A stretch of DNA of 64,000 nucleotides from a virus. Lineage: Duplodnaviria > Caudoviricetes. The notes below the pieces were generated by a model that was given only the letters and a program-made list of their open reading frames with translations, had not been told where the DNA came from and made no database searches. Position 1 is the stretch's first letter; every line of letters begins with the position of its first letter. The stretch is taken from positions 3,628 through 67,627 of the IMG/VR virus record IMGVR_UViG_3300038412_000035, one strand, 5' to 3'. Both the position numbers and the translations under genes were made by a program. Positions 1 through 8,348 of the stretch are shown piece after piece.

Positions 1-308
1 AATCAAGCTCAGCCTGCGCTAGCTTCTTGTATTCATTCTTTGTCTCTTCACAATCATCACACTTCCACTCAGACAGAGCATCCCGAACCATGTACCATGG
101 CGTTCTGTAGCAATTTGATTCCCCAGTTCGCTCAGAAACGGGGCATCCTTTGCACATGAGCATCTCACCAGTTATGTTTTCGACAAACATCTCGCAAAGA
201 GCGCAATCTTCTCCTTTTATTTTTGCATCATATGGCGTCTCAGCTGCCAAATTTTCCTCCCATTGTTTGATGCTTGTTTTGAGAGCAGTAAGCGTTTTTT
301 TCGTCCAT
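1..308 (-). pseudogene. Cys-rich early protein, paralogue of 383..709; frameshifted at a T7 run and truncated by the window edge
   Basis: ATG at 308 with AGGAGAGG SD. Removing one T from the run at 295-301 gives MDEKTLTALKTSIKQWEENLAAE..CALC..CKGCPV..C..TPWY..ELD, collinear with 383..709. The extra base may be a sequencing error rather than a real lesion. Confidence 0.7.
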
Positions 309-321
309 GGCAGCCTCTCCT

Positions 322-380
322 GGCCTCATCAGCATCCGCCTAACGGATGGACGGCGCACTCTCGCGCGCCGTTTCGGCCT
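322..380 (-). ncRNA. Type II hammerhead ribozyme HH1
   Basis: Minus strand: A-GGCC-GAAA-CGGCGCGC(GAGA)GUGCGCCG-UC / CAUCCG(UUAGG)CGGAUG-CUGAUGA-GGCC; predicted cleavage between 350 and 349. Confidence 0.93.
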
Positions 381-382
381 GC

Positions 383-709
383 TTAGGAAGGGAGAAGAGA
401 CTTGAGGAAATCAAGTTCCTGCTCTGCCCTCTTCTTATACTGCTTCTTTGTTTCATCATTCTTGTAATATTGCCAATTGCCAAGAGCCTTCCACACCTCA
501 TACCATGGTGTCCCGCTACAACTTGACATCCCAGTCTTTTTACTGACCGGGCAACCAACACAGTAGTCATCAATTGGGGAATCATAAAACAAAGTGCAAA
601 GAGGGCAAACATCACCTGATATGTTTGGTTGATCTGGGCTCTCAGCAGCGACATTCGCTTCCCAGTGCTGGATGCTCATCTTAAGAGCAATCAATGTCCT
701 TTCGTCCAT
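383..709 (-). CDS. Cys-rich (CPLC..CVGCP..C) early phage protein, probably Zn-binding
   Basis: Start refined to ATG 709 (SD AGGAGAGG just after HH2); 108 aa. Confidence 0.75.
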   Translation of the reverse strand: MDERTLIALKMSIQHWEANVAAESPDQPNISGDVCPLCTLFYDSPIDDYCVGCPVSKKTGMSSCSGTPWYEVWKALGNWQYYKNDETKKQYKKRAEQELDFLKSLLPS

Positions 710-722
710 GGCAGCCTCTCCT

Positions 723-778
723 GGCCTCATCAGTGCCCGCCTAACGGACAGACGGCGCTTAGCGCGCCGTTTCGGCCT
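723..778 (-). ncRNA. Type II hammerhead ribozyme HH2
   Basis: A-GGCC-GAAA-CGGCGC(GCUAA)GCGCCG-UC / UGUCCG(UUAGG)CGGGCA-CUGAUGA-GGCC; cleavage 751|750. Confidence 0.93.
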
Positions 779-965
779 TTTGTCTGTTGAATAGTTGGAT
801 TTCAATTTTCTCACCGCGCTTATCATGGATTTCAAATGCATCATTCAGAACTTGTTTGATCTTGTGATAGTTATCACTCTCAAATATCTCGCAGATGCTT
901 TTGGCGCCGTTCTCATCAAACAACCACACCACAAGAAGATAATTGAAGATTGGTTCTCTTGGCAT
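759..965 (-). CDS. Hypothetical early protein; C-terminus (KAETAR) encoded by HH2
   Basis: ORF track; GAGG SD; stop TAA lies in the loop of HH2 stem III. Confidence 0.65.
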   Translation of the reverse strand: MPREPIFNYLLVVWLFDENGAKSICEIFESDNYHKIKQVLNDAFEIHDKRGEKIEIQLFNRQKAETAR

Positions 966-974
966 AGCATAACC

Positions 975-1259
975 TCACTGTTTGATCTTGCTCTTGATAA
1001 ATTCCGCTACCTCATCGATCCTTCTGAAGTGAGTGATTGTTCCATTTAACATCCAATCACTGTCAGTTCGGCAAACGCACCATCCACAGTCAGGAGATTC
1101 AGAAGCGACGATGATCGCGAAGAAAGGCTTGCCGTCCTTTTGGACCCACATAGCCTCTGACTCTGCTCTTGGAGCTGTGAGTATGTTTGAAGTGACTCCA
1201 TCACAATCATTGAGATGGTGGCGGAGAATATCGAGGGCATAAATGTAGTTGAACGCCAT
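975..1259 (-). CDS. Hypothetical early protein
   Basis: Start refined to ATG 1259 (AGGAGA SD), MAFNYIY.. Confidence 0.7.
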   Translation of the reverse strand: MAFNYIYALDILRHHLNDCDGVTSNILTAPRAESEAMWVQKDGKPFFAIIVASESPDCGWCVCRTDSDWMLNGTITHFRRIDEVAEFIKSKIKQ

Positions 1260-1273
1260 TGTCTTTCTCCTGT

Positions 1274-1340
1274 TTGAGCCAATCAATCAGCTCAGATACA
1301 GGGCCGCATTCGTGCGGCCCTGCGCTCAACTGACTGAGCT
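1274..1340. other. Intergenic structured element (10-bp hairpin plus two flanking complementary pairs)
   Basis: CAGGGCCGCA-TTCG-TGCGGCCCTG at 1298-1322; AGCTCAG/CTGAGCT (1289-1295/1334-1340); TTGAGC/GCTCAA (1274-1279/1324-1329). Confidence 0.5.
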
Positions 1341-1552
1341 TAGTGGTTGGTTACTCTCTTCACCACCACCCTTTTCCTCATAACCTCCCAGTGGAGGTCT
1401 TTGTTTCTTCCACCTTTGCTGAGGAATTCAGCATACGTGATGCCAGGGTTACGAAGAATGATCTTCATCGAATTGAACCCTAGTGTACCTTCACGTCGTG
1501 GGTTGTGGTCGATACGAGGGAACAGAGCCTTCCCTTCAAAGCTACTCGTCAT
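1340..1552 (-). CDS. Small basic early protein (NPRREGT..GG..DL.W motif)
   Basis: Start refined to ATG 1552 (AGGAGA SD); the longer ORF-track call runs through HH3. Confidence 0.65.
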   Translation of the reverse strand: MTSSFEGKALFPRIDHNPRREGTLGFNSMKIILRNPGITYAEFLSKGGRNKDLHWEVMRKRVVVKRVTNH

Positions 1553-1633
1553 GGTACTCTCCTGTTTCTCTTCAGACAACCCCCACATTCGCCAGGTTGA
1601 TAGCCTGGGCTTTCCCACAGAATCAGCCACCAT

Positions 1634-1692
1634 GGCCTCATCAGCATCCGCATAACGGATGGACGGCGCACTCTCGCGCGCCGTTTCGGCCT
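1634..1692 (-). ncRNA. Type II hammerhead ribozyme HH3
   Basis: 59/60 nt identical to HH1; loop I is UUAUG; cleavage 1662|1661. Confidence 0.93.
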
Positions 1693-1700
1693 TCAATCAT

Positions 1701-2132
1701 TCAATCATTCAATGTTTCTGTGATCTTCTCCGCTTCCTCCGCGATACGCTTTAGGTCGCTGATGCGCTTCTTTATAGCATCAGCATTCCATTGCACCCCA
1801 ACGTGATCATGGTTCACTGCTTCATTGAGCTTTCGAGCGAGCAGCACCCGCTTCTCTTTTTCGCGCTTCATCCTCTTGATTCCATCAATATCGAAGTCCA
1901 GCCACGAGCGGCGATATTTGCTTGGTGATGAGCTGGTATCTTCTCCGTTGATGAATGTTAGCTCGTGGCCGGAAATATCCTGTTTGATCACGATGCTACG
2001 GCAAGTTGGCGAAACAGACTTGACTGTTGCGGCGTAATAGCTGTTATCCCAGCTACCAGGTCTGACCACGAAGACTTCTTGCCCGACGATGGGCCTTTCG
2101 CCCTTCTTCAGGATATCAGAGAGCGTCGTCAT
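1701..2132 (-). CDS. Hypothetical early protein
   Basis: Start ATG 2132 with GGAGG SD. Confidence 0.75.
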   Translation of the reverse strand: MTTLSDILKKGERPIVGQEVFVVRPGSWDNSYYAATVKSVSPTCRSIVIKQDISGHELTFINGEDTSSSPSKYRRSWLDFDIDGIKRMKREKEKRVLLARKLNEAVNHDHVGVQWNADAIKKRISDLKRIAEEAEKITETLND

Positions 2133-2158
2133 ATCTTCCTCCAATCAATCAGCAATCT

Positions 2159-2219
2159 GGCCTCATCAGTGTCCGCCTAACGGACAGACGACGCGCGCGA
2201 GCGCGCGCCGTTTCGGCCT
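2159..2219 (-). ncRNA. Type II hammerhead ribozyme HH4
   Basis: A-GGCC-GAAA-CGGCGCGC(GCUC)GCGCGUCG-UC / UGUCCG(UUAGG)CGGACA-CUGAUGA-GGCC; cleavage 2187|2186. Confidence 0.93.
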
Positions 2220-2704
2220 CAACTATACGCTCCAGGGAACTCAATTCCATCTGCCTCATCTCGCAATTGAGAGACATCTTCTATGAATTGCTGAATGTCG
2301 TCTATTTGGTTCTGTTTCTCTTCATTTTCGTCTTCGGTGGATCCATTGTCTTCGCTTGGTTGGTTGTTCTCGATCCACTCATTGGCAGTGTCGATCACGA
2401 TCTGGAGTGCTTCGACAGCATTGCTTCGCCGATCCGCGCGGGAAAGATTTTTGCGCTGGTTTTCTCGGAATGCTGCCTTTATGCTCTTGATTGCTTCTGG
2501 AACTTCAGGTTTATCCATACAATCAATGGTATTGGCGATCTCACTCAGAGTTTGCATACGCTGAGTGTGTTCGCGCAGCGTACCTTCGGCATTCTCAACC
2601 ACTTCTCTGATCTTATCACCCATATCAGTCATGGTTGAGAAAGCGTAATTAGTCATCTCTTCCAGCGTCATTTCCACAGGCACATTGGACTTTTTCGTCG
2701 CCAT
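2219..2704 (-). CDS. Acidic coiled-coil early protein
   Basis: Start ATG 2704 with AAGGAGA SD; stop TGA abuts HH4. Confidence 0.8.
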   Translation of the reverse strand: MATKKSNVPVEMTLEEMTNYAFSTMTDMGDKIREVVENAEGTLREHTQRMQTLSEIANTIDCMDKPEVPEAIKSIKAAFRENQRKNLSRADRRSNAVEALQIVIDTANEWIENNQPSEDNGSTEDENEEKQNQIDDIQQFIEDVSQLRDEADGIEFPGAYS

Positions 2705-2720
2705 TGTCTTTCTCCTTCTC

Positions 2721-2785
2721 GGCCTCATCAGCGCTCGCCTAACGAGCGGACGGAGCGCAGCGATTGCCGCGCGCCGTTTCGGCCT
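2721..2785 (-). ncRNA. Type II hammerhead ribozyme HH5
   Basis: A-GGCC-GAAA-CGG..extended stem III..CCG-UC / CGCUCG(UUAGG)CGAGCG-CUGAUGA-GGCC; cleavage 2749|2748. Confidence 0.92.
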
Positions 2786-3501
2786 CAGTTGAGCAACCCA
2801 GATACCTTTTGCCCCTCCGCTTCGCGGCGAAGCTTGACGTGATCGCCAGCCTTATGGCCGGCCGCCGATCCGTCTGTCCACTTCCCAATCCCGCCAACTT
2901 TCACAGCCTTCGTTTTGGGATAGGCTTCCATCGCAGCAGCCTCATTTTCGGCTGCTAGTTGTTTGAAGTATCCAACAGGAACCAGCGCCGCGCCTTTAGC
3001 GGATGGCGTCGTGATCTCTCTGATTGATTCCTGAGCTCGATGAAGAACGCGAACAGCACAGGCGACGCGGAATTTATCAACCCAAGCAGACCGATAGTTG
3101 CCTTTCAGGTGAGAGGGAACCAGTGGTTTGTAGAGAAGATTAATCTGCGCCATTATCCAAGCGAAGGTCTCTTCAGTGGCATCCAAATTGTCTGGACGGC
3201 CAATGAATTGGATGCCCTTCAGTCCTTTGCTGTGAAGAATAACCTGACAACCATACAACGCAGCCGCCGCCATAGCGGAATATATCTTCCACTGTATCAT
3301 GCGGTCTGTATTCATGTTGCCGACTTTCGCCTTTGGGCCTGACCCTGTGCCGATCTCATCTTGGTTGATCCCGTGGCGAGCCATCATAACAGCCGCCATC
3401 TGGAGCGCTGTATCGCGCTCGCTCTCTGTCGCTCCTGAGTCCTTGGACCCAACAGCCAGAAGTTTGCGGATCTTGTCATTGATTGTTTCTTGTTTGGTCA
3501 T
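2785..3501 (-). CDS. DUF2786-family protein
   Basis: N-terminal KIRKLLA...ERDTALQMAAVMMARHGI pattern typical of DUF2786; start ATG 3501 with GGAG SD. Confidence 0.75.
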   Translation of the reverse strand: MTKQETINDKIRKLLAVGSKDSGATESERDTALQMAAVMMARHGINQDEIGTGSGPKAKVGNMNTDRMIQWKIYSAMAAAALYGCQVILHSKGLKGIQFIGRPDNLDATEETFAWIMAQINLLYKPLVPSHLKGNYRSAWVDKFRVACAVRVLHRAQESIREITTPSAKGAALVPVGYFKQLAAENEAAAMEAYPKTKAVKVGGIGKWTDGSAAGHKAGDHVKLRREAEGQKVSGLLN

Positions 3502-3513
3502 CACTATCTCCAC

Positions 3514-3569
3514 AGCCTCATCAGTGCCCGCATAACGGACAGACGGCGCGCAGCGCGCCGTTTCGGCTT
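3514..3569 (-). ncRNA. Type II hammerhead ribozyme HH6
   Basis: A-AGCC-GAAA-CGGCGCG(CUG)CGCGCCG-UC / UGUCCG(UUAUG)CGGGCA-CUGAUGA-GGCU; compensatory AGCC/GGCU in stem II; cleavage 3542|3541. Confidence 0.93.
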
Positions 3570-3857
3570 TCAATCAAAGTAAGCGCACAGCGCACGGTCG
3601 TTGCCGTAGCTGATGTTGAAGTAATTCCCTTCCTGCTCAACTGAGGTTGTGTCCTCAGCCTTGAAGTTTAACATTTCCTTCATACGCATCCTGAATGGAA
3701 CGGTGTTTGGTTTAGCGTAGTCGCCACGGCATCCGCAGCGGCAAACACGATCCTTGCCGCGATAAACGGATTTGACCGAATTTGGATCGGCCTTCACTTG
3801 AGCTGCGAAGCGCTCAATGAAGGTGGTGATCTCTTCCTTGTTGGTTATTTCGGTCAT
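3570..3857 (-). CDS. Hypothetical early protein (CRCGC motif)
   Basis: ORF track, GAGGG SD. Confidence 0.75.
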   Translation of the reverse strand: MTEITNKEEITTFIERFAAQVKADPNSVKSVYRGKDRVCRCGCRGDYAKPNTVPFRMRMKEMLNFKAEDTTSVEQEGNYFNISYGNDRALCAYFD

Positions 3858-3876
3858 CTTTCCCTCGCTGGTTGGT

Positions 3877-3932
3877 GGCCTCTTCAGTGCTCGCCTAACG
3901 AGCAGACGGCGCTTAGCGCGCCGTTTCGGCCT
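3877..3932 (-). ncRNA. Type II hammerhead ribozyme HH7
   Basis: A-GGCC-GAAA-CGGCGC(GCUAA)GCGCCG-UC / UGCUCG(UUAGG)CGAGCA-CUGAAGA-GGCC; only the variable N7 position differs; cleavage 3905|3904. Confidence 0.92.
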
Positions 3933-4158
3933 TCAACCAGTGGCGATGATTCAGAGATTGGATGTTCTGTTTCCATCCGTAAGTGCTTTTGTCGTAAAAG
4001 ATACCGTGTGAAACAGTGTCGTAATAAACCGGCTCAACCACATCATCCATCAGGCGCGTAACGTTTGCGCCTGTCTTGTTAGCGCAGTCTTTGATCTTTC
4101 GGACAAGATCAATCAAATCCTGCTCACTAAGAAGCGGTGTGCTTATCTTTTTGGCCAT
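3913..4158 (-). CDS. First gene of the early operon; C-terminus (KAETAR) encoded by HH7
   Basis: Start ATG 4158 (GGAG SD), alternative start 4170. Confidence 0.65.
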   Translation of the reverse strand: MAKKISTPLLSEQDLIDLVRKIKDCANKTGANVTRLMDDVVEPVYYDTVSHGIFYDKSTYGWKQNIQSLNHRHWLKAETAR

Positions 4159-4209
4159 TTCACTCTCCATCGTTTCAACCAAGCGCCAAGTTTGATTGGA
4201 GTTTGGTTG

Positions 4210-4258
4210 AAACAACGAAAGCACCGCCTCGCTTTCGCGAGACGGCGCTTCGTTGTTT
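4210..4258 (-). promoter_or_regulatory. 22-bp RNA hairpin with GAAA tetraloop upstream of the early operon
   Basis: Arms AAACAACGAAGCGCCGUCUCGC / GCGAGGCGGUGCUUUCGUUGUUU; G-U wobbles pair only on the minus strand. Confidence 0.6.
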
Positions 4259-4259
4259 A

Positions 4260-4289
4260 TTTGGAGAAAGTTGCCCTTTTCGTCTGTAC
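4260..4289. repeat. 30-bp element, inverted copy of 63763..63792
   Basis: 27/30 identical to the reverse complement of 63763-63792. Confidence 0.8.
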
Positions 4290-4826
4290 GTGAGAGGTTC
4301 CGAACGTGTTTGCGTCGCCGCCTAGCGAGCGATCTAGCCTTTGGACGGCATCGAAAGCCTGCTTAGGGGTGGCGCCCCGTCGGGTTAGGTCTCGTTTTCA
4401 AACAGCGGGCGGGGATGAACCCCTAGGTGTGTCCTACTCCGAGGGAGCGCGATAACTCACCTGTACCCAGTGTAGCCTCGCGCGTGCGGAAAAGAAATTA
4501 AGCGAAAAAAGGGCGAAAAAACGAATAAAATCAACAGCCCAAATTTCGGCATCGGGCAAAAAAACGGCCCAGTTGCGCCAGTAAAATGCTTATTTTTCAA
4601 CGACTTATGGCACAAGATATTGGCTAATTGACCGATAACTATCAAGCATTTTCGCCCCAAAAAAAGGCGGTTTTTGGCCAATGCTGTTTCCCGGCCCTAG
4701 GACGGCCAAGGACGGCATTCTTGCCCTCTGTGGTATAAACCCTCACAGCGGTCCAAAACCTGCCGCCCTTGGCCGTCCCTGCATTTTACCACACATTTTC
4801 CGCAGGTCTGCCAGGACGCTTTCGGC

Positions 4827-5087
4827 GCTCGCCCTGCCTGGCTCGCCCTGCCCTGCCCTTGGAAAGTTTTTTGCGCCCCGCCCGCCCCGCCCCGCCCGCC
4901 CCGCCCCGCCCCGCCCCGCCCCGCCCCGCCCCGCCCGGCTCGCCCCGCCCCGCCCGCCCCGCCCCGCCCGGCTCGCCCCGCCCGGCCCCGCCCGCCCCGC
5001 CCGGCTCGCCCCGCCCCGCCCGGCTCGCCCCGCCCCGCCCCGCCCCGCCCGCCCCGCCCGGCTCGCCCCGCCCCGCCCGGCTCGCCC
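4827..5087. repeat. C-rich/G-rich degenerate tandem repeat (CGCCC, CCCGGCTCGCCC units)
   Basis: Directly visible; minus strand is G3/G4-run rich; related to 63798..63984. Confidence 0.9.
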
Positions 5088-5348
5088 ACTCATCCGTTAG
5101 TCGCGGCGTATATAGACGCGGCGCGATAAGCTCTAAACAATGAATGAGTGTCGATATTTCGGCCTTTTTCCGAAGATCCAACCTCACTTATCGATTTCAT
5201 TGCCGATGTTTCAATCAATTCACCAGCCAACCAAAGAAAAGAAAAAAGGAACCACAGTCGATAAAACACTTTCCTTTTTTATAATCTCGGAAGATTATCC
5301 GAAAGCTGGTTCCTCCCGGCTTCAACCAAGAGGATGGAGAAAACAAAT

Positions 5349-6170
5349 ATGGCAAAGAATGTTCCGGCGCAACAGGATACACCGAAGGGTGGTCCTGTTG
5401 TTTCATTTGACAATGAGTTCGAGGGTGTGGCTGGTGCTGGTTTCGAGAATGTCGGCGCAAATGACGTTCTTGTTCCTCGTCTAACCATACTTCAGGCTCT
5501 GTCCCCTCAACTGAAGCGAAACAAGCCAGAGTTCATCCCTGAAGCGAAGGCTGGCGACATGTGCGATGTCGCGTCAGGCAAACTCTTCCCTGATGGCCTT
5601 CTCTTCCTGCCTGTCAGCTACAACAAAGTGTATCTCGAATGGGCACCTCGCGAATCAAACAAGGGTTTGGTCGCGATCCACCAGACTGCCGAAATCCTCG
5701 AACAGTGCAAGCGCGACGACAAAAACCGCCCCTACACCAAGGAAGGTAATTTGGTGCAGGAGACAGCCCAATTCTTTGGGTTCAATCTCAGTGACAATGC
5801 CCAGCGGTGTTTCATCGCGATGGCAGCTACTCAACTGAAGCGCGCTCGCAAGTGGATGCATCTCGCGACCAGCGAGAAGCTCAGGCGCGCGGATGGTTCC
5901 ACATTCACTCCGCCATTCTTCTATCGCTCATACAAGCTGACTGCTGGGGAGGAATCAAACAACCAAGGCGACTGGTTCACCTGGCTGATCGAGCGCTCTC
6001 ATTCGCTGCCTGAAGTTCCGGCTGCTCTTGGTTGGAAGATTGATTGGCATTCGATCAAGAATGATGCAATCGAGTTTTCGAAGTCCATTGCTGCTGGGAC
6101 TGTCCGTGCTGACGTCGAAACTGGCAATGCTGGCCCAGAGGGCGGCCACGATACTGGGGAAGAGATGTAA
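5349..6170 (+). CDS. Conserved phage replication-module protein, putative ssDNA-binding protein
   Basis: PRLTILQALSPQ..GD..W motif and acidic C-tail, heading the replication operon; function inferred. Confidence 0.55.
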   Translation: MAKNVPAQQDTPKGGPVVSFDNEFEGVAGAGFENVGANDVLVPRLTILQALSPQLKRNKPEFIPEAKAGDMCDVASGKLFPDGLLFLPVSYNKVYLEWAPRESNKGLVAIHQTAEILEQCKRDDKNRPYTKEGNLVQETAQFFGFNLSDNAQRCFIAMAATQLKRARKWMHLATSEKLRRADGSTFTPPFFYRSYKLTAGEESNNQGDWFTWLIERSHSLPEVPAALGWKIDWHSIKNDAIEFSKSIAAGTVRADVETGNAGPEGGHDTGEEM

Positions 6171-6180
6171 CCAACCGATG

Positions 6181-6217
6181 GCGCTGCCGGTGGAAAATCC
6201 GGCAGTGCTCTTTCTTC
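6181..6217 (+). terminator. Intrinsic terminator candidate
   Basis: 10-bp stem GCGCTGCCGG/CCGGCAGTGC followed by TCTTTTCTT. Confidence 0.6.
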
Positions 6218-6230
6218 AGGAGATGGCGAG

Positions 6231-6827
6231 ATGAGCGAGCAGATTTCAGACGAATTTGATATCTCAGAAAACAAGGAGCAGATGGCTCCGCAGGACAAGC
6301 TGAAGACACTCCACTCGATGGCTGGTGATTGTCTCAGCATGAGCGACGCAATCGAGCAAATGGAAGCTCAGCTTTCAGCAGCGAAGGCCGCTCTTCAATC
6401 ACTCAGGACGGAAAAGATGCCTGAGTTGATGGCTGAGTTGTCGATGCCTGATTTCACATTCAACGGTCTTGAGTTCAAGCTGGATGACTTCGTCAGCGGC
6501 TCATTCCCGAAAGATCCAGACAAGCGCAAGGTCGCTGTCGGCCTTCTCAAGGATTATGAAGCTGAAGGGATGATCAAGACTGAGATCACAGTTGAATTCG
6601 GCAAGTCTCAGCACAATGAGGCTCTTGACCTTTTCAACTCTTTGGTTGAGAAAGGTTACACTGCCTCTATTGATGAAAACATCCATGCCCAAACTTATCA
6701 GGCATTCGCTCGCCGGCGATTGGAGGATGGTGAACCGATTGATGCTGTTGGCCTTGGGTTGTTCACAGGGAAGGTCGTCAAGTTCAAGCCTGTCAAAGAG
6801 AAGAAGAGCAAGGCAAAGAAATCCTGA
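6231..6827 (+). CDS. Conserved phage protein (coiled coil + IH.QT..AF motif)
   Basis: ORF track; family usually paired with the upstream gene. Confidence 0.75.
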   Translation: MSEQISDEFDISENKEQMAPQDKLKTLHSMAGDCLSMSDAIEQMEAQLSAAKAALQSLRTEKMPELMAELSMPDFTFNGLEFKLDDFVSGSFPKDPDKRKVAVGLLKDYEAEGMIKTEITVEFGKSQHNEALDLFNSLVEKGYTASIDENIHAQTYQAFARRRLEDGEPIDAVGLGLFTGKVVKFKPVKEKKSKAKKS

Positions 6828-6839
6828 TTGGAGGGTGAT

Positions 6840-7031
6840 ATGTTTGTTCTGTGGACGCATGACTTTGCACATCGCACCTCGATCTCAAAGAAGCATTACA
6901 AAGAGATGACTGAGATGGAGAGGCGCACCAAGTTATGCGAGCCAATCAAGATTGCTCCAGAGCATGAGAATGAGACGCTGGAGAGGCTGGCTGAGCTTTA
7001 TCCTCTGCCCAACCAAGTGAAGGAAAAGTGA
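6840..7031 (+). CDS. Small hypothetical protein
   Basis: ATG 6840 with GAGG SD. Confidence 0.55.
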   Translation: MFVLWTHDFAHRTSISKKHYKEMTEMERRTKLCEPIKIAPEHENETLERLAELYPLPNQVKEK

Positions 7032-7032
7032 C

Positions 7033-7971
7033 ATGACGAAGTTCGTTGTTGCTGGGGCGGGGATGGCCGGCCTTCTTGCTGGTAACCTATTGGGAAAGAG
7101 CCTCAGCCGCATTGCTGAGGCTGCGCCGAACCTTCCAAACAATCATTCCGCAGTTCTGCGTTTCCGATCAACTGTTGTTGCGGATAGCCTCGGCATTCCG
7201 TTCAAGAAGGTCCAGATGATGAAGGCGGTTGCGCCTTGGAGAAATCCTGTGGCTGATGCCATGGCGTATTCGAGGAAGACAAGCGGCATTGCCTCGCTCC
7301 GGTCATCAATCAGTGCTTCTGGGTTGGTTGAGACGAGATACATCGCGCCGCCTGACCTCATAAACCAGATGTTTGAGCCAATCCTCAGCAAAGTGTCTTT
7401 CGATGATCCGCTAAATATGAATTCGATAGACAATGTTCTGGTTGCTGGGTTCAAGATCATATCAACCATCCCGATGCCGACGCTGATTAAGATACTTGGG
7501 TATCAAACAAGGAAGGAAATGTCATTCACATACCACAACGGCTACAACATCATCGCTAAGTTGGATTATGTCGATGCCTATTGCACTCTGTACATTCCAA
7601 ATCCTTCATTCAAAGGGTCTCGCATATCAATCACAGGTGATGAGATGGTGATTGAATGCTATGAGGCTATCAGCGATGCCAAAGAGGCATTCGATATAAC
7701 AATTGAGGCTCTATCATATATTGGTCTCAGGCGATCTAATCTGCTGACATCTGATGTCGAGATCAAGACCCAGAAATACGGGAAGATCACGCCGATTGAT
7801 GATGATGAGCGAAAGCGCTTCATCATGTGGGCTTCAGACAAGTTTGACATATACTCGTTTGGCCGTTTCGCTACATGGCGACCTGGCTTGCTGTTGGATG
7901 ATCTGGTGAGTGATTACCGTGTCATCTCGCGTCTGGTCATTGGAATGACCAGTTATGATCATAGGAAGTGA
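7033..7971 (+). CDS. FAD/NAD-binding oxidoreductase (Rossmann fold; Glf/UGM-like C-terminal GRFATW)
   Basis: N-terminal VVAGAGMAGLLAG (GxGxxG) dinucleotide-binding motif. Confidence 0.75.
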   Translation: MTKFVVAGAGMAGLLAGNLLGKSLSRIAEAAPNLPNNHSAVLRFRSTVVADSLGIPFKKVQMMKAVAPWRNPVADAMAYSRKTSGIASLRSSISASGLVETRYIAPPDLINQMFEPILSKVSFDDPLNMNSIDNVLVAGFKIISTIPMPTLIKILGYQTRKEMSFTYHNGYNIIAKLDYVDAYCTLYIPNPSFKGSRISITGDEMVIECYEAISDAKEAFDITIEALSYIGLRRSNLLTSDVEIKTQKYGKITPIDDDERKRFIMWASDKFDIYSFGRFATWRPGLLLDDLVSDYRVISRLVIGMTSYDHRK

Positions 7972-7982
7972 GGAGATAACCA

Positions 7983-8348
7983 ATGCCTATGCCGAAAGGA
8001 CACAGATTTCACTGGGATAAAGACAAGCTGAAGAACCATGTGAATTCTGAGTATTTCGGTCTATGTAGAAGGTCTCTTCAGAATTTCAAATGCTGCCATA
8101 ACAGGGTTAGAGATGGCAAGTGCCCATCAATTGAATGGGATAGGAACAGAGAAGGATACATAGCATTCATGAATGAGATTGGCGAAAAGCCAAATGATGG
8201 AATGAAGTGGAGCGTAGGAAGGATTAATCACGATCTTGGTTATCAAACAGGAAACATAAGATGGGAGCTTCACATACACAATTCAGTTAAGAGAAAAGGA
8301 ACCAAATATCAAAATTGCATTGATGCTATCCAAACCACAGGAGGATGA
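7983..8348 (+). CDS. Free-standing HNH-like homing endonuclease
   Basis: IAFMNEIGEKP..WSVGRINHDLGY..GNIRW pattern; AT-rich insertion overlapping the thyX start. Confidence 0.65.
   Translation: MPMPKGHRFHWDKDKLKNHVNSEYFGLCRRSLQNFKCCHNRVRDGKCPSIEWDRNREGYIAFMNEIGEKPNDGMKWSVGRINHDLGYQTGNIRWELHIHNSVKRKGTKYQNCIDAIQTTGG

What the first reader, a model, noticed from the sequence alone, without database searches (positions are those of the whole stretch)
301..3933. Ribozyme copies are mosaics of one another: candidate recombination joints for gene-cassette shuffling
Seen: HH1 and HH3 are 59/60 identical. HH2 shares 33/34 nt with HH6 over its stem I half (725-758 vs 3516-3549) and 30/30 nt with HH7 over its stem III half (750-779 vs 3904-3933). 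HH1 and HH2 share an identical 32-nt SD/start leader (301-332 vs 702-733) in front of paralogous genes. Inference: the repeats also act at DNA level as homology joints, so that ribozyme+SD+gene units are duplicated, deleted or exchanged like integron cassettes. This would make a hyperplastic region in which every new gene arrives with its own transcript-processing signal.
Basis: partly seen in the sequence, partly recalled or inferred. Interest (0 to 1): 0.7.

Follow-up and report, generated by a model that had tools for sequence, protein, structure and literature searches.

The report
Hammerhead ribozyme repeats as recombination joints
An uncultivated phage separates the small genes of one operon with 11 near-identical self-cutting RNA motifs, and evidence here and in similar phages suggests that these repeats also let DNA recombination duplicate, delete and swap the genes between them.

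Summary
All four identity counts are exact: 59/60, 33/34, 30/30 and 32/32. The seven copies are type II hammerheads on the minus strand. Four more lie just upstream of the window, making 11 in one leftward operon of a 67.6-kb IMG/VR phage contig.

The HH2/HH6/HH7 "mosaic" does not by itself show recombination. It fits a tree in which the short stem III is ancestral, and no pair of stem types occurs in all four combinations in this genome.

Other evidence does point to DNA-level exchange here:
- Paralogues P1 and P2 are 62% identical in the body, yet the 20 nt after the upstream hammerhead and the last 34 nt of the gene are identical.
- Three interleaved copies are identical or differ by 1 nt, with no flanking homology.

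Sister arrays of the same hammerhead subfamily give stronger evidence:
- One [SD-gene-HH] unit is present or absent, with the junction inside the ribozyme. The predicted 83-aa read-through protein matches a database protein exactly.
- A stem patch has been replaced between 99%-identical strains.
- Homologous ribozyme-bounded genes occur in permuted order.

No integrase, RecT or ERF was found, so this is not integron-like. The closest analogue is PeSL-mediated shuffling in T4-type phages. No close relative of this phage exists to test it directly. The scan has noted similar hammerhead arrays on other DNA before.

The parts
322..379 (-). HH1 (array copy C5), type II hammerhead between P2 and P1
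   Evidence: Differs by 1 nt (loop I) from HH3 and from C3 (L001 3291-3348).
723..777 (-). HH2 (C6), type II hammerhead upstream of P2
   Evidence: (38.3 bits, above gathering).
1634..1691 (-). HH3 (C7), type II hammerhead
   Evidence: It shares a 61-nt exact match with C3 (L001 3291-3348), 1.97 kb away, with no flanking homology.
2159..2218 (-). HH4 (C8), type II hammerhead
2721..2784 (-). HH5 (C9), type II hammerhead
   Evidence: Its stem I is identical to that of C4 (L001 3544-3598), while its stem III is wholly different.
3514..3568 (-). HH6 (C10), type II hammerhead
   Evidence: (39.3 bits).
3877..3931 (-). HH7 (C11), type II hammerhead with core CUGAAGA (U7A)
   Evidence: (37.3 bits).
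383..709 (-). P2, a 108-aa Cys-rich protein gene bounded by HH2 and HH1; paralogue of P1
   Evidence: 53% aa identity to P1.
1..308 (-). P1, paralogue of P2 (runs on to L001 3602). Its ATG at 308 is out of frame with the body, owing to an A7 run at window 295-301.
299..332 (-). 34-nt tract (hammerhead core, stem II, SD, ATG and 3 codons), 100% identical to 700-733
700..733 (-). Second copy of the identical 34-nt 5' tract
382..415 (-). Last 34 nt of P2 including the stop, 100% identical to the end of P1 (L001 3601-3634). The gene bodies are 62% identical.
   Evidence: permutation P about 1e-4 for a run of 34.
1254..1271 (-). 18-nt SD/start leader (AGGAGAAAGACAATGGCG) shared with 2699-2716, in front of an unrelated gene
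   Evidence: family D7.
2699..2716 (-). Second copy of the 18-nt SD/start leader, directly after HH5

Best explanation
The region is a leftward operon of about 15 small genes in an uncultivated tailed phage. It is punctuated at 11 gene junctions by 55-64-nt type II hammerheads in direct orientation. Each follows a stop codon directly and is followed by an SD and start codon.

At the RNA level the hammerheads most likely cut the polycistronic transcript into gene-sized mRNAs. This is inferred; it is the role proposed for such arrays by Perreault 2011.

At the DNA level the same repeats give dispersed homology. Host or phage homologous recombination, or replication slippage, uses that homology for unequal exchange and short-patch gene conversion.

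In this genome that process has:
- duplicated one ribozyme-bounded unit (P1/P2);
- kept the unit ends identical while the gene bodies diverged;
- homogenised three non-adjacent copies (C3, HH1, HH3).

In sister arrays the same process removes or adds single [SD-gene-HH] units, swaps stem modules between copies and reorders genes.

The outcome resembles cassette shuffling. The mechanism is general homologous recombination at a repeated regulatory module, not site-specific recombination.

Shown: the repeats, their identities, the duplication, and the unit indel, conversion and reordering in sister arrays. Inferred: that the same events occur in this phage, that ribozyme homology rather than mere location at a gene boundary is causal, and RNA cleavage itself.
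For: Own genome:
- 11 hammerheads, all in one operon and nowhere else in the 67.6-kb contig.
- P1 and P2 are 62% identical over the middle 291 columns, with a longest run of 8. They are 100% identical over the 20 nt after the upstream hammerhead (34 nt counting the conserved ribozyme core and stem II) and over the last 34 nt of the gene. Permutation gives P(run>=34) about 1e-4, with none of 100,000 shuffles giving both runs.
- The P1 frameshift sits exactly at the edge of the identical 5' tract.
- C3 and HH3 share a 61-nt exact match and HH1 differs by 1 nt, at interleaved junctions with unrelated flanks.
- Similarity in stem I and in stem III is uncorrelated (Mantel r=0.09, p=0.21), and copies do not cluster strictly by position.
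- An 18-nt SD/start leader is reused before unrelated genes.

Sister arrays of the same subfamily (up to 77 bits with model R1; 91% identical to C4):
- In L110/L102, two assemblies lack 202 nt, which equals the spacing of two hammerheads that share an identical 31-nt 3' part. An in-silico crossover there predicts an 83-aa ORF overlapping the upstream gene by 38 nt. Database protein P0026 from those assemblies is 100% identical to that prediction.
- L102 hammerheads show all four combinations of two stem I types with two stem III types.
- L113 and L114 are about 99% identical, but one orthologous hammerhead differs at about 9 positions, and its stem III matches another copy in the same array.
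- Homologues of two ribozyme-bounded genes occur in opposite relative order in L113 and L110.
- In L078/L081/L082 a 79-nt hammerhead+SD island (95% identical) lies between unrelated genes on either side. The same pattern is seen in L072/L091.
Against: - No close relative or population variant of this phage was found, so no indel, circle or deletion junction is shown for this genome.
- The 11 copies can be fitted to a tree defined by stem I, with lineage-specific insertions in stem III. No module-level four-gamete violation occurs here.
- Some homoplasies cannot come from one conversion tract and look like parallel mutation or selection: loop I G/U and the stem II closing base are shared by C3 and HH6 across a different stem I 3' strand.
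- Mosaic joints in phages sit at gene boundaries anyway. In L079/L080/L087 the two indels next to a hammerhead have a ribozyme on one side only, and other indels have none nearby.
- The distant relative L094 has a complete turnover of small genes with a different junction element, so turnover does not need hammerheads.
- No DNA was available for the two deletion-variant contigs. That evidence rests on gene coordinates and an exact protein match.
Confidence: 0.6

Rival explanations
1. Descent and constraint only. The copies arose by old duplications and diverged. Shared segments reflect common ancestry, retention of an ancestral minimal stem III and strong structural constraint. The identical ends of P1 and P2 are kept by selection on RNA function (ribozyme folding, translation initiation), not by ongoing recombination.
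For: - The HH2/HH6/HH7 pattern is tree-compatible, with no four-gamete violation between stem modules in this genome.
- The short stem III of HH2 and HH7 is also found in an unrelated phage (L110 2398-2452).
- Parallel changes exist that one tract cannot explain.
- The P1/P2 tail contains CCUAA, complementary to loop I UUAGG (my reading), so some RNA-level constraint is possible.
Against: - All 11 synonymous positions in the 34-nt 3' tract are identical, while the body is 62% identical with a longest run of 8.
- Other junctions use quite different leaders and tails, so no general sequence constraint exists.
- Identical copies sit at interleaved junctions with no flanking homology.
- Sister arrays show conversion and unit indels actually occurring.
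Confidence: 0.25
2. Integron-like site-specific cassette system. A dedicated recombinase recognises the folded repeats as attC-like sites and excises or inserts circular gene cassettes.
For: The layout (repeat, promoterless small gene, repeat) resembles a cassette array.
Against: - No tyrosine integrase, RecT or ERF in the 95%-complete contig; the integrase control search found hits in all 14 control genomes.
- The repeats are canonical hammerheads with RNA-level covariation.
- The sister-array deletion is what a crossover within a 31-nt identical stretch would give.
Confidence: 0.03
3. Assembly artefact. Repeats of 55-61 nt led the metagenome assembler to mis-order or chimerise units, creating the interleaved pattern and the apparent variants.
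For: Exact repeats of 58-61 nt could confuse small-k assembly graphs. The deletion variant is known only from assembled contigs.
Against: - An assembler cannot invent 11 covarying ribozymes or two diverged paralogues with identical ends.
- Contigs from neighbouring ENA accessions carry the name prefix k141, which in my experience marks MEGAHIT contigs built at k=141, far longer than the 31-nt repeat. The variant contig's own name is not shown.
- The variant occurs in two assemblies, and the full form in at least five.
Confidence: 0.05

Closest known systems
Clustered hammerhead ribozymes flanking genes in prophages (Perreault et al. 2011, PMC3088659)
   Same: Type II hammerheads in close proximity flank single genes or short gene blocks of phage operons. 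[quoted passage not shown]
   Different: That work treats the arrays only at the RNA level. It does not analyse relationships among copies, duplicated units, indels with junctions inside the ribozyme, or conversion between copies. This array (11 copies in 5 kb) is denser than the arrays I recall from its Figure 3, which I could not inspect here.
PeSL regulatory cassettes of T4-type phages (Arbiol et al. 2010, PMC2839356; Comeau et al. 2014, PMC4122927)
   Same: A short repeated regulatory module lies between small non-essential genes of a hyperplastic region. Recombination between copies causes insertion, deletion and replacement of the genes between them, without a dedicated recombinase.
   Different: A PeSL is a sigma-70 early promoter plus a terminator stem-loop. 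Here the module is a self-cleaving ribozyme plus SD, and no promoter-like or terminator-like site falls at the junctions. DNA mini-circles were shown for PeSLs; nothing of the kind is shown here.
Integron gene cassettes (attC/IntI)
   Same: An array of short promoterless genes, each with one repeat.
   Different: No integrase. The repeats are RNA-functional hammerheads, not attC sites. Exchange is consistent with homologous recombination within identical stretches.
Phage T7 early operon RNase III sites (from my own knowledge)
   Same: Intergenic structured elements cut an early polycistronic mRNA into monocistronic messages with hairpin ends. The distant relative L094 has a hairpin with an internal loop at the same junctions.
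   Different: Cleavage here would be autocatalytic, not by a host enzyme. I know of no role for the T7 sites as recombination joints.

Membership tests
Hammerhead ribozyme type II (Rfam RF02276) | Catalytic core CUGANGA ... GAAA and a cleavage triplet GUH | tested here: met
   All 7 window copies have GAAA, GUC and CUGAUGA (HH7 has CUGAAGA, a change at the tolerant position 7). Two copies outside the window have CCGAUGA.
Hammerhead ribozyme type II (Rfam RF02276) | Three helices with closed stems I and III and an open stem II, supported by covariation | tested here: met
   RNAalifold gives the type II fold. 5 of 18 pairs show compensatory changes, all but one in stem I.
Hammerhead ribozyme type II (Rfam RF02276) | Score at or above the family's gathering threshold | tested here: inconclusive
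   3 of 7 window copies score 37.3-39.3 bits against a threshold of 37. The other window copies score 28-32 bits with E<=3.5e-5 in the own-genome search.
Hammerhead ribozyme type II (Rfam RF02276) | Self-cleavage activity | not testable with these tools
   Needs in vitro transcription or 5'-OH / 2',3'-cyclic-phosphate RNA-seq.
PeSL-type mobile regulatory cassette | The module is made of a sigma-70-like early promoter plus a terminator stem-loop | tested here: not met
   The promoter-like count is at shuffle level, and no promoter-like or terminator-like site falls at a hammerhead junction on the minus strand.
PeSL-type mobile regulatory cassette | Recombination between copies produces indels or replacements of the intervening genes between close relatives | tested here: inconclusive
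   Met in sister arrays. Untestable in this phage because no close relative was found.
Integron | Adjacent tyrosine recombinase IntI | tested here: not met
   PF00589 is absent from the 95%-complete contig, while the control search found it in all 14 control genomes.
Integron | attC sites recognised as folded single-stranded DNA | not tested
   The repeats are explained as RNA hammerheads; no attC model was run.

The most novel reading that the evidence does not exclude
Self-cleaving ribozyme arrays in phage operons act as two-level modules. The same roughly 60-nt unit (hammerhead plus SD) processes the transcript. As dispersed DNA homology, it also drives gain, loss, reordering and exchange of single ORFan genes. 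This would explain why such arrays hold ever-changing gene sets. It would amount to a general recombinase-free 'ribozyme cassette' mechanism of gene flux, in which each transferred unit is expression-ready.
Probability: 0.4. Interest if true: 0.75.

Novelty: new variant of a known kind. Interest (0 to 1): 0.6.

Why it matters
Hammerhead arrays in phages have been known since 2011, but their biology is still described as largely unexplained, and only an RNA-processing role has been discussed. Repeat-mediated modular shuffling is documented for promoter/terminator cassettes in T4-type phages.

Linking the two would explain the observation that the genes between clustered hammerheads are 'not constant'. 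It would also predict that ribozyme-punctuated operons are hot spots of ORFan gene turnover, where anti-defence and host-takeover genes tend to sit.

The idea is directly testable, using split-read analysis or PCR ladders across any such array. For this particular window the claim remains an inference drawn from within-genome patterns and from sister arrays.

Tried and rejected
Searches for close relatives of this phage:
- blastn of window 1-8000 against GenBank phages: no match.
- TerL tblastn: best hit 48%.
- The search for related loci with g2: nothing.
- A 16-mer hammerhead pattern in IMG/VR gave mostly chance single hits.
- A degenerate hammerhead pattern in IMG/VR and in the metagenome collection found other phages with the same ribozyme subfamily, but none sharing the operon's genes.
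- g2 homologues gave one true but distant relative, L094 (53-60% aa in the anchor genes). It has no hammerheads.
- A DUF932 alignment search gave relatives at <=51% identity, with 0-4 hammerheads and no shared small genes apart from g5-like domains.
- P2 homologues in other phages lie in tightly packed operons without hammerheads.

Analyses that did not settle the question:
- The site-compatibility matrix shows many incompatibilities, but loop III columns are not reliably homologous and some incompatibilities need parallel mutation. I did not treat it as proof of recombination.
- I looked for RNA pairing between the identical P1/P2 tail and the leader or stem II extension. I found only a 5-bp CCUAA/UUAGG complement, specific to these two junctions (my reading).

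Rejected readings: integron, a PeSL proper and an assembly artefact as the main explanation.

DNA of the two deletion-variant contigs could not be fetched ('sample's file is too large').


Full report
**What is there.** The window is bases 3628-67627 of a 67,627-bp IMG/VR virus record judged 95% complete. It is a tailed phage with TerL, portal, protease, major head and tape-measure genes and a DnaE-type polymerase. Its nearest GenBank phage TerL is only 48% identical.

The finding's range lies in a leftward (minus-strand) operon of about 15 small, mostly unannotatable genes. The annotatable ones carry DUF2786/DUF7168, DUF932, or a weak MarR-like HTH.

Rfam and a model built here (R1) find seven type II hammerheads in the window, on the minus strand:
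- 322-379
- 723-777
- 1634-1691
- 2159-2218
- 2721-2784
- 3514-3568
- 3877-3931

Four more lie just upstream of the window (L001 2576-2637, 2813-2874, 3291-3348, 3544-3598). There are none elsewhere in the contig.

Each hammerhead starts 0-3 nt after a stop codon, or overlaps the end of the upstream ORF, and is followed by an SD and a start codon. The fold is supported by compensatory changes in stem I.

**Check of the observation.** These are far from chance as repeats. However, most matched positions are invariant across all 11 copies. The 30/30 and 33/34 identities therefore rest on a handful of informative sites.

**Does the mosaic among copies show recombination in this genome? Not by itself.**

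I coded each copy by its two variable modules.
- Stem I falls into four types:
  - A: C1, C2, C3, HH1, HH3
  - B: C4, HH5
  - C: HH2, HH4, HH6
  - D: HH7
- Stem III is either a short form differing only in its loop (C4, HH2, HH6, HH7) or one of several long forms.

No two stem III types are each shared by two stem I types, so there is no module-level four-gamete violation.

HH2 groups with HH6 by stem I, and HH2 and HH7 may simply retain an ancestral short stem III. That same stem III occurs in an unrelated soil phage (L110 2398-2452).

Type D can be derived from type B by one compensatory pair change.

Some homoplasies cannot come from one conversion tract and point to parallel change. The loop I G/U and the stem II closing base are shared by C3 and HH6, on either side of a different stem I 3' strand.

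What does hold is this:
- Similarity in the two halves is uncorrelated (Mantel r=0.09, p=0.21).
- Similarity follows position only weakly (r=0.28, p=0.035).
- The types are interleaved along the operon. In 5'-to-3' order they run D, C, B, C, A, C, A, B, A, A, A.

**Better evidence in this genome.**

*(i) P1 and P2 are adjacent paralogues* (53% aa identity), each bounded by hammerheads. P2 lies at window 383-709. P1 runs from window 308 leftwards to L001 3602.
- Over the middle 291 aligned columns they are 62% identical, with a longest identical run of 8.
- The 20 nt after the upstream hammerhead (SD, ATG and three codons) are identical. Counting the conserved ribozyme core and stem II, the identical tract is 34 nt.
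- The last 34 nt of the gene (10 codons and the stop) are also identical, including every synonymous position.
- A run of 34 occurred in about 1 of 10,000 column shuffles. Both runs together occurred in none of 100,000.
- Other junctions have quite different leaders and tails, so there is no general sequence requirement.
- This is the expected signature of gene conversion or exchange confined to the unit ends.
- The P1 start codon is out of frame with the body by one A in an A7 run that lies exactly at the edge of the identical 5' tract. That would fit a recent recombination scar, a pseudogene or a homopolymer error.

*(ii) C3 and HH3 share a 61-nt exact match and HH1 differs by one base.* These three sit at alternate junctions, with unrelated genes and no homology beyond the ribozyme. 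That indicates homogenisation of the ribozyme itself rather than movement of gene-plus-ribozyme units.

*(iii) An 18-nt SD/start leader is reused before two unrelated genes*.

**Relatives of this phage.** No close relative exists in GenBank phages, IMG/VR, the JGI metagenome contigs or the protein collection.

The only syntenic relative found is L094, an ENA contig. Its shared proteins are:

| Protein | aa identity to this phage |
|---|---|
| g2 | 53% |
| DUF932 | 60% |
| helicase | 42% |
| Pam3_Gp34-like | 48% |

- It has the same layout: a divergent control region with tandem repeats, then a long operon of tiny genes.
- Every small gene between the conserved anchors is different.
- The junctions carry not hammerheads but at least 11 copies of another covarying hairpin with an internal loop, which is not in Rfam.
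- So punctuation of the operon is conserved, while both the punctuating element and the cargo turn over.

P2 homologues in other phages sit in tightly packed operons without hammerheads. Genes therefore do not generally travel with a ribozyme.

**Sister arrays of the same hammerhead subfamily.** Pattern searches found many phage contigs with arrays of closely similar type II hammerheads.

*(a) A one-unit indel in L102/L110* (eight hammerheads in 2.3 kb):
- Two adjacent copies (L110 2197-2250 and 2398-2452) share an identical 31-nt 3' part.
- Two other assemblies of the same phage carry one 83-aa ORF where L110 has a 52-aa gene, a hammerhead and a 51-aa gene. They are 202 nt shorter, exactly the spacing between the two ribozyme ends.
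- Deleting 2251-2452 in silico gives an 83-aa ORF that overlaps the upstream gene by 38 nt, as in those contigs. A crossover in the 5' shared part would not give this.
- The database protein P0026 from those assemblies is identical to the prediction, including the 21 residues read through the hybrid hammerhead.
- One [SD-gene-hammerhead] unit is therefore present or absent in nature, with the junction inside the ribozyme.

*(b) Reassortment of halves.* The L102 copies show all four combinations of two stem I types and two multi-nucleotide stem III types. This is a genuine reassortment of halves.

*(c) Patch replacement.* L113 and L114 are about 99% identical over 700 nt. One orthologous hammerhead differs at about 9 clustered positions, and its stem III equals that of another copy in the array.

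*(d) Gene order.* Homologues of two ribozyme-bounded genes are in opposite relative order in L113 and L110.

*(e) Islands at mosaic junctions.* In L078/L081/L082 a 79-nt hammerhead+SD island (95% identical) is flanked by unrelated genes. The upstream gene differs in one genome and the downstream gene in another. L072/L091 show a similar island.

*Counter-example.* In L079/L080/L087 two indels abut one hammerhead, but each has a ribozyme on one side only. Several other indels have none nearby. Gene-boundary location alone therefore explains part of the pattern.

**Mechanism.** The contig has no tyrosine integrase, RecT or ERF. The sister-array junction is what a crossover within an identical stretch would give. 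I therefore favour general homologous recombination, or slippage, between direct repeats, with short-patch conversion among copies.

This may be a side effect of a repeated RNA-processing module, or it may be exploited by the phage. It is not an integron. It is also not a PeSL in composition, since no promoter-like or terminator-like sites occur at the junctions. It does work like PeSL shuffling in T4-type phages.

Clustered hammerheads flanking changing genes were described in 2011, with only an RNA-level reading. A 2019 review still calls their biology unresolved. A search of the held library for papers combining hammerhead ribozymes with prophage, gene conversion or mosaicism listed none that mentions hammerheads.

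**Caveats.**
- All sequences are metagenome assemblies.
- The deletion variant is supported by gene coordinates and an exact protein match, not by its DNA.
- Deletion cannot be told from insertion.
- For the focal phage the DNA-level role is inferred.

Earlier notes of this scan record similar hammerhead arrays and repeat-bounded 'cassette' regions on other DNA. I treat them as leads only.

**Verdict.** This is a new variant of a known kind (repeat-mediated modular shuffling, with a ribozyme as the repeat). Interest 0.6.

Noticed in passing
L001 2576-2637, 2813-2874, 3291-3348, 3544-3598 (upstream of window base 1): Four more hammerheads of the same array lie outside the window. The two most downstream in the operon have core CCGAUGA (U4C), so they may be slow or inactive copies.
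   Followed up: partly
window 295-301: An A7 run (T7 on the + strand) puts the P1 ATG (window 308) out of frame with the P1 body. From the ATG the frame stops after 22 codons. This could be a pseudogene, a homopolymer error, slippage or a recombination scar at the edge of the identical tract.
   Followed up: partly
L094 3709-8308 (ENA ERZ28533575 NODE_4087): The syntenic operon of a distant relative carries at least 11 copies of a 43-52-nt element. It has an invariant outer helix (UUCGCU/AGCGAA), a conserved internal loop and a covarying distal stem, and is followed by a shared SD leader. It has no Rfam match. It may be an RNase III-type site or an undescribed processing RNA.
   Followed up: partly
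window 1340-1552 vs L001 623-1474: The 70-aa g5 is 53% identical to residues 218-268 of the 283-aa g14, the last gene of the operon. This is a second, dispersed paralogy. g5-like domains also occur near DUF932 genes in L116 and L127.
   Followed up: partly
window 1692-1714: Three tandem copies of an 8-nt unit (ATTGAATG in mRNA sense) lie directly upstream of HH3. Similar TGATTGAA stop contexts precede HH6 and HH7.
   Followed up: no
L001 1-110 and L094 2190-2375: GC-rich tandem repeats occur at the contig start in this phage (14-nt unit) and in the divergent control region of the relative (about 29-nt unit). They may mark an origin, a packaging site or a genome end.
   Followed up: no
L110 2614-2665 and 3418-3471 vs L102, L107-L112: Among 99.4-99.7%-identical strain contigs, 5 of the 15 differences between L102 and L110 fall in hammerheads, which make up 9% of the length. 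They include a compensatory pair in stem I.
   Followed up: partly
window 759-965 and 3913-4158: Two ORFs (g7 and g0) run into the following hammerhead and end with the same residues, because both read the ribozyme's 5' part. This shows up as a weak blastp match between them.
   Followed up: no
L001 847-1179: g14 contains a long Ala/Glu/Lys-rich region encoded by imperfect tandem repeats with spacings of 21-60 nt.
   Followed up: no
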